Positions 4,773-56,666 of a stretch of 64,000 nt of DNA are shown in pieces. A program made the position numbers and the translations under genes. This DNA is from Eledone cirrhosa. Lineage: Eukaryota. The DNA lies in assembly GCA_964016885.1 (NCBI GenBank), contig OZ024763.1, positions 17,174,001 to 17,238,000 on the forward strand. Direction: 5' to 3'. Below the pieces are notes generated by a model. It was not told the DNA's origin. It worked only from the letters and a program-made list of their open reading frames with translations, and searched no databases. The stretch's first letter is position 1. Every line of letters begins with the position of its first letter.

Positions 4773-4847
4773 CGCACCATTTCCTTTCGCTATATGTCTC
4801 TGCACCACTCCCCTACACACCCTTTGAACTCTGTTCCCACACACTTC

Positions 4848-4882
4848 TCACCTGAGGAAGGGCTTATGCCCGAAACGTCGTT
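4848..4882 (+). ncRNA. Minimal hammerhead-like motif with weak helix I
   Basis: CUGAGGA-A-GGGC(UUAU)GCCC-GAAA-CG-UC; AATAAA about 40 nt downstream; lies in an insert between (TA)n tracts. Confidence 0.55.
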
Positions 4883-4969
4883 CCCCACCACCACCCCACT
4901 CTCCAGAGCGTGAAATTAATAAACATTCGTTGTACTGCCTCTCTGTTTTGTTCCTGTTCAAATTTTTCC

Positions 4970-5117: not shown

Positions 5118-5271
5118 ACTCTTCTCCTCATTCCAGCCATCCGGCTGAGGCCATGCTGGGGAGCCGCCCTTAGAAATGCTTACAGCACCTAAGTTTCCCA
5201 AGGGGTCGCCCATCTAAGTACTAACCAGGCTCGACGTTGCTTAACTTCGGACGAGAACCTGTGTTTTCAGC
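5118..5271 (-). pseudogene. 5'-truncated 5S rRNA-derived sequence (5174-5271) with a SINE-like 3' tail (5118-5173)
   Basis: Minus strand GCTGAAAACACAGGTTCTCGTCCGAAGTTAAGCAACGTCGAGCCTGGTTAGTACTTAGATGGGCGACC...GGTGCTGTAAGCATT follows the metazoan 5S consensus with a 7-nt deletion. Confidence 0.88.
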
Positions 5272-5294
5272 TTATATATATATATGTCTATGTT

Positions 5295-6394: not shown

Positions 6395-6719
6395 GAGAGG
6401 CACAAAAAACAAAAAAAAAATCCCCAGTCACTGAAGAGGTCACAGAATGTGTGACGAAAGAACTTTGACAATATATAAACAACCATCTGGTTGTGGAACC
6501 AACCAACCAACCGGAAATTTATAAATTCCTAAATTTATAAATTTATTATAATAAATTGAAGTGAAAGCAACTGGTGCGTGTGTTTCTTATTGGCAACATG
6601 ACCCTCCCAAAGTATAACAATATCGGCTTCAACACACGTTTTCAGATGAAGAATCTTGCGAAACAAATTCAGAAACGAAATATATATATATATATATATA
6701 TATATGAAAATATAAACAT

Positions 6720-10661: not shown

Positions 10662-10710
<49 letters not shown>

Positions 10711-10841
10711 GTGAGGTTTTTTTTACAAAATGAAAAATAACCGAGGTGTCCTACACGAGTGAAAGTATAAAGAAAAAGAGATGAAATCGAAAATGCAACT
10801 GAAGTCTTATTTTTTTTTTAAATATATATATTTATTTGGTT

Positions 10842-10879
10842 CCTTTACCGGTTTCGCAGTTCTTCTGCTTTTCAAAAGG
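10842..10879 (-). ncRNA. Minimal type-I hammerhead ribozyme, U3:A8 variant
   Basis: CCUU-UUGAAAA-GCAG(AAGAA)CUGC-GAAA-CCGG-UA-AAGG, then AATAAA. Confidence 0.75.
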
Positions 10880-10932
10880 TGAGTTGAGATGGAGGGTCTG
10901 TGGTTTTTCTCATATATATATATATATATAAT

Positions 10933-12170: not shown

Positions 12171-12334
12171 TATGGTATATATATACATACACACTCATAT
12201 ATATATAGATAGATATAGAGATATATACACTGCAAACTGCGCACACACACACATATATATACACAAAACATATGCTCACACACACACACACGCACACACA
12301 TATATATACACAAAACATATGCTCACACACACAC

Positions 12335-12371
<37 letters not shown>

Positions 12372-12406
12372 GATATATACACACACTACAAACTACACAC
12401 ACACAT

Positions 12407-13020
12407 CAGGGTAGGAGTGGAGTTTAGTGAGGAATTCCAGATACAAGTAGGTGAACATCAGGGTTCAGTCCTCAGCCCGCTCGTGTTCATTATAGTCCTC
12501 CAAGCCATAACAGAGGAGTTTAAGACTGGCTGTCCATGGGAACTTCTCTATGCTGACGATCTGGTTCTTATAGCAGAATCAGTAGAGGAGCTAGAGAATA
12601 AATTCTGGCTATGGAAACAGCAGTTGGAAGCAAGAGGACTGAGAGTGAACCTAGCTAAGACAAAAGTGTTGATGAGTAGAAAAGAGGACAAAACTCTGAT
12701 TCCGTCAGGGAAATGGCCATGTTCGATATGCAGAAAAGGAACTGGCATAAATTCTATAAAATGCACACAATGCAGATCCTGGGTACATAAGAGATGTAGC
12801 GGGATAGCAGGCAAACTAACAGGTAGGGAGAACTATGTATGCAGTAGATGTACAGGGAAATTAGACAGTAGAAGTCGCATTGATAGAAACATTTTTCAAA
12901 TGCAGGAGGGCGCTATAGAAGTGGTGGATAGCTTCCGGTACCTAGGAGATTAGATTAGCATGGGAGGGGGGTGTTCCGTGGCCATAGTATCTAGAATAAG
13001 GACGGGTTGGAAGAAGTTGT
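12407..13020 (+). mobile_element. RTE-clade LINE reverse transcriptase fragment (decayed) with an embedded C4HC3 finger
   Basis: HQGSVLSPLVF...ELLYADDLVL...NLAKTKV...CSIC...CTQC...HKRC...CSRC...SFRYLG, in-frame stop, then SRIRTGWKK. Confidence 0.93.
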
Positions 13021-13395: not shown

Positions 13396-13606
13396 TCATC
13401 ATCATCGTTTAACGTCCATCTTCCACACTAGCATGGGTTAGACGGGTGTTGTCCCACTTGAGGCAAGGTTGGTCGGGTGACCATGTCTCGCTCGTATAGG
13501 ACTGTCTGGCAGGTTTTCTACAGCTGGATGCCCTTCGTAACACCAACCACATTTACAGTGTGGAACTGGGAGGTTTTTACCGTGTTACCTACACGCCCAC
13601 ATTACA
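13396..13606 (-). mobile_element. RTE-type 3' end fragment
   Basis: Homologous to 24878-25076, 33356-33585 and 47732-48090. Confidence 0.75.
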
Positions 13607-13627
13607 AATACATGTATATATATATAT

Positions 13628-13659
<32 letters not shown>

Positions 13660-13745
13660 ACATTATGAAGAGAGAAGAAACATTTAGATATAATTAGTAA
13701 TAAAATATAATTAGTAACATAATTAGTAGTAAACTACTCCTAGAT

Positions 13746-13835
13746 TCCTCGACTACGTAGTTTCGTGGCATAAACAAAAACAATACATCATAAAGATATA
13801 GAGTCCTTGCGAGGTCTGCCGACTTATCAAGAGGA
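13746..13835 (-). ncRNA. Type-I hammerhead ribozyme, U3:A8 variant, GUC cleavage triplet
   Basis: UCCUC-UUGAUAA-GU(C)GGCA...UGCCAC-GAAA-CUACGUAG-UC-GAGGA; 5-bp helix I, palindromic helix III. Confidence 0.82.
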
Positions 13836-13946
13836 TACCTCATTTTACTAGTCTCAAGAACGCGTCTACACGACGTGAGAAAGAGTCCCAAAAGGCGGAG
13901 GGGGAGATATATATGTATAGAAAGTATTGCCGCAAGAAGCTGTTCC

Positions 13947-13990
<44 letters not shown>

Positions 13991-13992
13991 TA

Positions 13993-14183
13993 TAGTAACA
14001 AGTATGACCCCGACGGCAGAGCTCAAACCGTTTCGACGGCTAATTCAGTCCAGAATTAGCCATCGAAACGGCTTGAGCTCTGCCGTTGGGGTCATACTTG
14101 TTCCTATTACCCACTCTACTACCCTAAGAACTGAGTACTTTGGTGCGTTATGGTCCATCTGGTTCCTTACCACATTTCCTTCG

Positions 14184-14185
<2 letters not shown>
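13993..14185. mobile_element. Penelope-like terminal remnant folded into a palindrome
   Basis: About 50-bp inverted arms (13996-14046 and 14053-14102); same family as 33948-34946; flanked by (TA)n. Confidence 0.65.
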
Positions 14186-14258
<73 letters not shown>

Positions 14259-56560: not shown

Positions 56561-56666
56561 TGTATTTTGTCTGATGAAGGCACACCATAACTTAACTTGG
56601 TATCCTTGAAATATGTATAATGAAATAAATATGGTTTTATAAATATAGTTTCCATTTATTAATATC

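What the first reader, a model, noticed from the sequence alone, without database searches (positions are those of the whole stretch)
13746..13835. Best-preserved hammerhead: GUC site, U3:A8 compensated core, long stem II insert
Minus strand reads UCCUC-UUGAUAA-GUCGGCA-(about 46 nt)-UGCCAC-GAAA-CUACGUAG-UC|GAGGA. The canonical C3-G8 tertiary pair is replaced by the compensatory U3-A8. Helix III is a 10-nt palindrome that could fold in cis or pair as a dimer. The predicted cut is between 13751 and 13750. This is the most likely copy to be active.
Basis: partly seen in the sequence, partly recalled or inferred. Interest (0 to 1): 0.75.

Follow-up and report, generated by a model that had tools for sequence, protein, structure and literature searches.

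The report
Hammerhead fragment of a jumping repeat
This is a lone, truncated piece of a non-coding repeat found in thousands of copies in this animal genome; it carries an already known variant of a predicted self-cutting RNA and was likely pasted in by borrowed Penelope-type retrotransposon enzymes, so it is an ordinary member of a known kind.

Summary
The motif is there as described: a type I hammerhead on the minus strand (13835 to 13746) with a U3-A8 core, a 46-nt helix II insert, a 10-nt palindromic helix III and a predicted cut at 13751/13750. It is no chance match. It lies in a solo, 5'-truncated 252-bp piece of a ~593-bp non-coding repeat; 6,056 genome sites match its 5' half, 6,042 with U3-A8. 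[quoted passage not shown] U3-A8 cores, palindromic helix III and dimer cleavage are published for PLE hammerheads. 'Most likely active copy' is not supported: this hammerhead is identical to most family copies, has no tandem partner, and its monomer fold is predicted to be weak. Core and helices are unchanged in a 78%-identical sister subfamily, but without compensatory changes. Cleavage, expression and the autonomous partner are not shown. Unusual points: the long insert and a 165-nt tail (30-40 bp is typical). The scan already reported this family twice elsewhere in this genome.

The parts
13658..13909 (-). 5'-truncated solo fragment (unit positions 1-239) of a ~593-bp non-coding hammerhead repeat (non-LTR retrozyme / non-autonomous PLE); its 3' end is the family's first fixed end (E1)
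   Evidence: blastn to family loci, 91.7% to the L023 unit over 252 nt, no other copy of the unit in the window; end class E1 followed by (AT)n
13746..13835 (-). type I hammerhead motif, U3-A8 core
13831..13835 (-). helix I, 5' arm
   Evidence: helix I 97.9% of cells paired in 39 copies
13824..13830 (-). core nucleotides 3-9 (U3 at 13830, A8 at 13825)
   Evidence: 6,042 of 6,056 genome matches are U3-A8
13817..13823 (-). helix II, 5' arm with one bulged C
13771..13816 (-). 46-nt helix II insert: internal loop plus a predicted 14-16-bp hairpin
   Evidence: folds; 87.5% of cells paired, 9 of 16 pairs vary on one side only
13765..13770 (-). helix II, 3' arm (closes G10.1-C11.1)
13752..13761 (-). 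10-nt palindrome: helix III (3 bp + 4-nt loop as monomer, 10-bp duplex as dimer)
13750..13751 (-). predicted cleavage site after C17 (GUC triplet)
   Evidence: position read; cleavage itself not tested
13746..13750 (-). helix I, 3' arm
13705..13730 (-). copy-specific rearranged patch (net 13-nt gain, approximate limits) downstream of the hammerhead, outside its helices
   Evidence: alignment to L004
13615..13660 (.). (AT)n tract at the 3' end: the family's insertion target
   Evidence: 83 of 91 family arms ending at E1 or E2 are followed by (AT)n

Best explanation
The motif is the hammerhead of a ~593-bp non-coding repeat with thousands of copies in this genome, and this copy is a solo, 5'-truncated insertion that was likely made by the enzyme of an autonomous Penelope-like element and is likely a weak or silent by-product rather than the family's active source. 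Likely cycle: a tandem source copy is transcribed (inferred); two neighbouring hammerheads pair through the 10-nt palindrome and cut at GUC (predicted); the unit-length RNA, probably circularised (inferred), is bound in trans by a PLE reverse transcriptase/GIY-YIG protein (inferred; partner not found), which nicks (AT)n and starts cDNA at one of two fixed points, 80 and about 245 nt 3' of the cut (the two ends are shown; their meaning is inferred from PMC11167929). Copying runs through the cut site for a variable length and leaves 5'-truncated monomers, tandems and two-armed inverted insertions (shown). The window copy is the simplest product: one arm started at E1 that stopped after 239 nt.
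For: Copy number: 6,056 exact matches to the 5' half, control pattern 0. Tandem period 590-607 nt, mostly 591-595; of the first 100 listed sites 56 are in tandems, in 57 insertions, 29 solo, 12 two-stranded and all 12 divergent. In 60 non-overlapping loci, 91 of 98 arms end at unit ~239 (52) or ~404 (39); of 34 inverted pairs 28 have one end of each kind, 2 have E1 twice, 0 have E2 twice, 4 have another end. This matches the published PLE layout: partial tandems, inverted 5'-truncated copy, tail at one end only, (TA)n targets (PMC8557442 passages), with the tail lying between two RT start sites (PMC11167929). The unit has no match to 7 PLE proteins of this genome. Autonomous RT+GIY-YIG elements exist in the genome, and one with a 938-aa frame carries its own U3-A8 hammerhead. 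A sister subfamily (about 78% identical) has the same period and both ends, with 0 fixed differences in 44 core and helix columns against 90 of 501 outside the motif; for the 25 columns not used to find it, P=0.007. Copies within one insertion share a haplotype: 11 discordant of 540 comparisons at 16 common polymorphic columns; overall 1.0% within against 2.7% between insertions, as expected if each insertion comes from one unit-length template. Helix III is unstable as a monomer and stable as a duplex; in a real L023 tandem the double hammerhead is 2.5 kcal/mol better than two monomers.
Against: No cleavage, transcript or circle is shown. No compensatory base-pair change supports helices I-III, and the covariation score was below all 500 shuffles; the support is invariance only. 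The hammerhead fold is rare in predicted ensembles: 0.017 for the 90-nt motif, 0.0015 for the window fragment, about 0 in the whole unit, and the double-hammerhead fold lies 13.6 kcal/mol above the free minimum (tertiary contacts are not modelled). Arms do not preferentially start at the cut site: 2 of the arms listed start at unit 160-161. In the one PLE reconstituted in vitro, hammerhead cleavage was not needed for insertion (PMC11167929). The unit shows no similarity beyond simple repeats to any autonomous PLE in 50 GIY-YIG loci (only 150 of 10,596 candidates were scored). Rfam gives no match.
Confidence: 0.72

Rival explanations
1. Same mobile family, but the hammerhead does not cut in the replication cycle: the fold is kept as a protein-binding or folding signal, or cuts only rarely, and uncleaved tandem RNA or template jumping makes the arrays.
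For: Low predicted occupancy of the active fold; arms read through the cut site; hammerhead mutants did not affect insertion by an anole PLE in vitro and no reads ended at its cut site (PMC11167929); metazoan PLE hammerheads cut poorly in vitro (PMC4209133).
Against: All catalytic positions and the GUC triplet are unchanged between subfamilies that differ at 18% of other columns; the two longest invariant runs of the unit are the two hammerhead halves (the 3' half was partly selected by the search pattern).
Confidence: 0.13
2. The ~593-bp unit is the pseudo-LTR of a full-length autonomous PLE that was not sampled, and the window piece is just its 5'-truncated 3' end.
For: 5'-truncated PLE ends are common; the window has one at 10698-10915, 96-97% identical to the end of the L061 element. 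Only a small share of family loci was inspected.
Against: Units are joined head to tail without any frame between them in arrays of up to 5; PLE-protein matches in family loci belong to other families inserted nearby; no same-strand spacing of 2-8 kb among the first 100 listed sites.
Confidence: 0.08
3. This particular copy is an active monomeric ribozyme that cuts a host transcript and has been kept for that role.
For: All core positions are intact and a 3-bp helix III can be drawn; helix I has pair probability about 0.88 in the 110-nt context.
Against: The copy is a recent member of a young family (mean 2.0% from the column majority), identical to many others in the motif, inside a microsatellite- and repeat-rich tract; helix III probability 0.01-0.09. 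Whether a gene spans the locus was not tested.
Confidence: 0.05
4. Chance resemblance to a hammerhead in repetitive DNA.
For: No Rfam hit; folding z-score -1.02.
Against: 0 of 200 shuffles meet the strict descriptor; the two halves are the most conserved parts of the unit; the carrier has PLE architecture, where such motifs are the rule.
Confidence: 0.01

Closest known systems
Animal non-LTR retrozymes (Cervera and de la Pena 2020, PMC7229834, parts 2-3 of 6 read; Li, Clavereau and Pollet 2026, bioRxiv 10.64898/2026.07.22.740005, part 1 of 5, section 12 and passages read)
   Same: Non-coding, dispersed short tandems with one type I hammerhead per unit; thousands of copies; solo monomers common; co-occur with autonomous PLEs and are proposed to be their non-autonomous derivatives.
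   Different: Unit of ~593 bp is above the 150-450 bp of the 2020 paper but inside the 51-972 bp range of the 2026 preprint; U3-A8 core and a 46-nt helix II insert; circular RNA is shown for coral, mussel and axolotl but untested here; the window copy is a 252-bp fragment.
Hammerheads of Penelope-like elements (Cervera and de la Pena 2014, PMC4209133, parts 1-2 of 4 read)
   Same: Type I topology, helix I of 4-5 bp, larger helix II, palindromic helix III implying dimers; U3-A8 variant reported in Schistosoma Cercyon PLEs (about 1,300 hits); bulge inside helix II as in Drosophila virilis Penelope.
   Different: No unpaired nucleotide between A9 and G10.1; longer palindrome (10 nt); long structured insert in helix II; carrier has no ORF.
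EN+ PLE insertions and non-autonomous PLEs such as Chlamydomonas MRC1 (Craig et al. 2021, PMC8557442, passages read); anole Poseidon PAc (Frangieh et al. 2024, PMC11167929, parts 1-2 of 4 read)
   Same: Partial tandems, inverted 5'-truncated arm, a tail at one end only, (TA)n targets, two fixed 3' ends read as two RT start sites.
   Different: Tail here is about 165 nt against the 30-40 bp stated in both papers; no autonomous partner with matching 3' end was found, whereas non-autonomous Chlamys generally resemble their partners there.
Natural U3-A8 hammerheads (Perreault et al. 2011, PMC3088659, passages read)
   Same: C3-G8 covaries to U3-A8 in several natural examples; such pairs were already known to be active in vitro.
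   Different: Activity of this sequence is untested; within this family there is no C3-G8 form (0 of 6,056).

Membership tests
Type I hammerhead ribozyme | Three helices around the core, open ends in helix I | tested here: met
   5 + 6 + 3 bp (10 as dimer)
Type I hammerhead ribozyme | Conserved core (U4 G5 A6 A9 G12 A13 A14 A15.1), G10.1-C11.1 pair and NUH triplet | tested here: met
   Read; no fixed change between two subfamilies. Numbering and consensus follow PMC4209133 and general knowledge.
Type I hammerhead ribozyme | Watson-Crick pair between positions 3 and 8 | tested here: met
   U3-A8 in 6,042 of 6,056 matches; 6 C3-A8, 8 U3-G8, 0 C3-G8
Type I hammerhead ribozyme | Compensatory changes in the helices among homologues | tested here: inconclusive
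   39 copies: 0 two-sided changes in helices I-III, which are nearly invariant; covariation score below 500 of 500 shuffles
Type I hammerhead ribozyme | Match to a curated Rfam hammerhead model (a convenience test, not a defining property) | tested here: inconclusive
   0 matches up to E=10 at 13660-13920; the long insert and variant core may fall outside the models (inference)
Type I hammerhead ribozyme | Loop 1 - loop 2 tertiary contact | not tested
   An internal loop in helix II is predicted but no partner was modelled
Type I hammerhead ribozyme | Mg2+-dependent site-specific self-cleavage | not testable with these tools
   Needs a bench assay
Non-LTR retrozyme | Non-coding tandem repeat with a type I hammerhead in each unit | tested here: met
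   Family: period 590-607 nt, arrays up to 5 units per arm, no match to 7 PLE proteins. The window copy itself is a solo fragment.
Non-LTR retrozyme | Dispersed multi-copy family co-occurring with autonomous PLEs | tested here: met
   6,056 matches; RT+GIY-YIG frames of up to 1,096 aa in the genome
Non-LTR retrozyme | Expression as linear and circular unit-length RNA | not testable with these tools
   No run on record as RNA was available to lay
Non-LTR retrozyme | Target-site duplication (when present, longer than 4 bp) | tested here: inconclusive
   Ends lie in (AT)n, which hides duplications
Non-autonomous Penelope-like element | Partial tandems, inverted 5'-truncated arm, tail at one end only | tested here: met
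   28 of 34 inverted pairs have one E1 and one E2 end; 12 of 12 two-stranded insertions are divergent. Tail is about 165 nt.
Non-autonomous Penelope-like element | Insertion into (TA)n | tested here: met
   83 of 91 E1/E2 arms
Non-autonomous Penelope-like element | 3'-end similarity to an autonomous partner | tested here: inconclusive
   None in 50 GIY-YIG loci, a small sample of 10,596 candidates
Autonomous Penelope-like element | Single ORF with RT and GIY-YIG endonuclease | tested here: not met
   No tblastn match of 7 PLE proteins to the unit or to the window

The most novel reading that the evidence does not exclude
This family is a clean genomic record of how a PLE enzyme copies a ribozyme-made RNA circle: two enzyme molecules start at two fixed sites 165 nt apart on the same unit-length template, one for each target strand, and run round it through the re-ligated cut site, which gives one-haplotype, two-armed insertions with a tail four to five times longer than those described; the conserved 46-nt helix II hairpin would be the switch or protein-docking site that times cleavage.
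Probability: 0.25. Interest if true: 0.55.

Novelty: new member of a known kind. Interest (0 to 1): 0.27.

Why it matters
As flagged, little: U3-A8 hammerheads with palindromic helix III in PLE-related repeats are published, and this copy is a fragment. The family has modest value as a test system: it is short, young, very abundant and has two sharply fixed ends 165 nt apart, so it could test whether ribozyme cleavage and RNA circles take part in PLE-driven retrotransposition, which is proposed (PMC4209133) but was not needed in the one in vitro system (PMC11167929).

Tried and rejected
1. Rfam: whole window (no hammerhead among the 150 of 367 rows shown) and local region (0 rows). 2. Expression: no RNA holder listed among 6 runs; this says nothing on expression. 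The 'goes back 593' joint in one contig of run X4 was rejected as evidence of an RNA circle, because a collapsed tandem gives the same joint and the run is not on record as RNA. 3. Autonomous partner: blastn of the unit against 50 GIY-YIG loci, reading of sequence downstream of 13 PLE frames (output partly cut), a pattern for other families with the same helix III (21 of 22 hits were truncated or mutated family members, 1 unrelated) and loose ends in contigs found none. 4. A within-array T/C hot spot 15 nt 3' of the cut (unit 174), first read as a possible misread or ligation scar, was rejected: all 9 discordant insertions come from one search, which ranked hits by likeness to the window copy (T there), and none from the 20 loci taken from the position-ordered list. 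5. Covariation test of the named structure did not exceed shuffles. 6. Lunse, Weinberg and Breaker (PMC5785218) is not held; only its title was seen in a reference list. 7. A guess that the host is a cephalopod was untested and used only to aim one literature search; an octopus repeat paper (PMC13282606, passages) has 0 occurrences of 'hammerhead' or 'ribozyme'. Searches listed no paper on this family; supplements were not opened and those of PMC4209133, PMC8557442 and the 2026 preprint may list similar motifs or longer tails.

Full report
Observation. Rfam found nothing locally up to E=10, and the 110-nt region folds no better than shuffles (z=-1.02).

Carrier. The window lies in a 3.0-Gb genome of 1,796 contigs, in a tract rich in microsatellites and repeats. 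A DNA search returned 40 matches at 91-100% identity (counts are lower bounds). These define a non-coding unit of about 593 bp; the window holds only unit positions 1-239, at 13909 to 13658, and no other copy. The piece has a private rearranged patch downstream of the hammerhead. A 20-nt pattern for the 5' half of the motif, allowing C or U at 3 and A or G at 8, matches 6,056 sites with 0 control matches; 6 are C3-A8 and 0 are C3-G8, 8 are U3-G8, leaving 6,042 U3-A8. The variant core is therefore the family standard, not a trait of this copy. Among the first 100 listed sites, 56 are in head-to-tail tandems spaced 590-607 nt; they form 57 insertions, 29 solo and 12 two-stranded, all 12 divergent. 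Seven PLE proteins of this genome do not match the unit or the window.

Ends. In 60 non-overlapping loci (71 examined, 11 overlapping duplicates dropped), 91 of 98 arms not cut by a locus edge stop at unit ~239 (E1, 52) or ~404 (E2, 39); 83 of those 91 run into (AT)n; 5' ends are scattered. Of 34 inverted pairs, 28 have one E1 and one E2 end, 2 have E1 twice, none has E2 twice and 4 involve another end; about half would be mixed if ends were drawn independently at 52:39 (arithmetic). Contigs of run X1 show (AT)n loose ends at the same two places. This is the published PLE footprint: partial tandems, an inverted 5'-truncated copy, a tail at one end only, (TA)n targets (PMC8557442 passages); in an anole PLE the tail is the stretch between two RT start sites (PMC11167929). 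The tail here is about 165 nt against 30-40 bp in those papers. The window copy ends at E1.

Homologues. A loose end in run X5 led to a sister subfamily (186 matches to the pattern, nearly all inspected ones of this subfamily), about 78% identical, with the same period and both ends. Between subfamilies (101 and 66 pieces) there are 0 fixed differences in 44 core and helix columns, 11 in the 46 insert columns and 90 in 501 other columns; for the 25 motif columns not used in the search pattern P=0.007; mean departure from the column majority is 2.0% in the main and 5.6% in the sister subfamily. On an alignment of 39 of 67 distinct segments, helices I-III are paired in 97.9-99.1% of cells and the insert hairpin in 87.5%, the latter kept by one-sided changes in 9 of 16 pairs; but only 1 cell shows a two-sided change and the covariation score is below all 500 shuffles. 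So the structure is supported by invariance and context, not by covariation.

Autonomous elements. A GIY-YIG search scored 150 of 10,596 candidates. Frames of 938 and 1,096 aa and several shorter ones carry RT and/or GIY-YIG matches. The 938-aa protein has a C-x4-C-x2-C motif before the endonuclease, the linker described for Neptune and Nematis (PMC8557442); clade placement was not tested by a tree. That element carries a different U3-A8 hammerhead with a 6-nt palindrome, identical to the window motif at 10879-10842. The unit shows no similarity beyond simple repeats to autonomous elements in 50 loci (one locus merely contains a family insertion), so the mobilising partner is unknown.

Mechanism. 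Shown: dispersal, tandems, two fixed ends, (AT)n targets, conserved motif. Within 54 insertions with repeated positions, copies differ at 1.0% of sites against 2.7% between insertions, and at 16 common polymorphic columns only 11 of 540 comparisons are discordant. New alleles thus reach all units and both arms of an insertion, as expected if each is copied from one unit-length template (a circle, or a linear monomer reused by template jumps); a homogeneous tandem source is not excluded. Predicted: helix III is unfavourable as a monomer hairpin (+1.5 kcal/mol) and strong as a duplex (-12.9); in a real tandem the double hammerhead beats two monomers by 2.5 kcal/mol but lies 13.6 above the free minimum; the monomer fold has probability 0.017 in the 90-nt motif, 0.0015 in the window fragment and about 0 in the whole unit (tertiary contacts not modelled). 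Inferred: transcription of tandem sources, dimer cleavage, circularisation, and copying in trans by a PLE protein. Against the cleavage step: arms read through the cut site (2 of those listed start at unit 160-161) and cleavage was dispensable for an anole PLE in vitro.

This copy's 90 nt equal the commonest family sequence. It lacks a tandem partner, so it could dimerise only between separate molecules. The window holds other hammerhead-like motifs, one identical to that of an element with a long open frame. Nothing singles this copy out as the most active.

Known and new. U3-A8 in PLE hammerheads, a short helix I, a long helix II, a palindromic helix III and low activity outside dimers are in PMC4209133; natural U3-A8 covariation is in PMC3088659; non-coding tandem carriers are the non-LTR retrozymes (PMC7229834; 2026 preprint, units 51-972 bp); a review restates the dimer model (PMC6765202 passages). 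It works like, and meets the sequence-level tests for, a non-LTR retrozyme of PLE origin; cleavage and circular RNA could not be tested. Four literature searches listed no paper on this family; supplements were not read. The scan's own index gave nothing by sequence but, by words, two earlier reports on a 591-595-bp U3-A8 repeat in this genome and three on similar repeats in other genomes. These are unchecked AI notes; my family and end analysis came before them, and the one-template test after.

Verdict. Real motif, new member of a known kind, interest 0.27. The most novel reading left open (two fixed starts 165 nt apart on one RNA circle, with the insert hairpin as a switch) has probability about 0.25 and would merit about 0.55.

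Noticed in passing
window 10698-10915, minus strand: 5'-truncated 3' end of an autonomous PLE family (96-97% to L061, which has a 938-aa RT+GIY-YIG frame); carries a second U3-A8 hammerhead at 10879-10842 with a 6-nt palindromic helix III and ends in (AT)n.
   Followed up: yes
window 3228-3167 (minus) and 56563-56627 (plus): Two related hammerhead-like motifs with C3-G8 core, 8-bp helix I and AU-only helix III; a relative is visible in L004 near 2410-2470.
   Followed up: partly
window about 4845-4890 and 6425-6470, plus strand; 35554-35489, minus strand: Further hammerhead-like cores of other families: two C3-G8 motifs (the 6431 one recurs in L040 and L074) and a weak U3-A8 candidate.
   Followed up: no
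window 13992-14200, with relatives at 33933-34094 and 34880-34961: Neighbouring repeat with a fold-back of about 116 nt (inverted truncated arm plus longer arm, both ending in (AT)n), again a two-armed layout with two different ends.
   Followed up: no
window 13400-13606 and at least 9 other places (e.g. 24893, 47737, 33562, 10342, 19597): Abundant ~200-bp interspersed repeat, SINE-like, 77-88% identical between copies.
   Followed up: no
window about 12420-12960: Fragment that looks like a LINE reverse transcriptase (244-aa open frame at 12219-12953, plus strand); family judged by eye, no profile search run.
   Followed up: no
window 5177-5287, minus strand: 5S rRNA-like sequence above the Rfam gathering score (46.1 vs 38 bits), probably a pseudogene or 5S-derived SINE head.
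   Followed up: no
L068, L078, L079 (downstream of their PLE frames) and L064, L071: Other PLE families of this genome appear to carry U3-A8 cores with a short palindromic helix III (L068, L078, L079; partly decayed) or C3-G8 cores (L064, L071); read by eye and not recovered by the strict descriptor.
   Followed up: partly
L030, L056, L091, L092: The hammerhead repeat often sits at the (AT)n end of, or next to, other PLE insertions, consistent with a shared target.
   Followed up: partly
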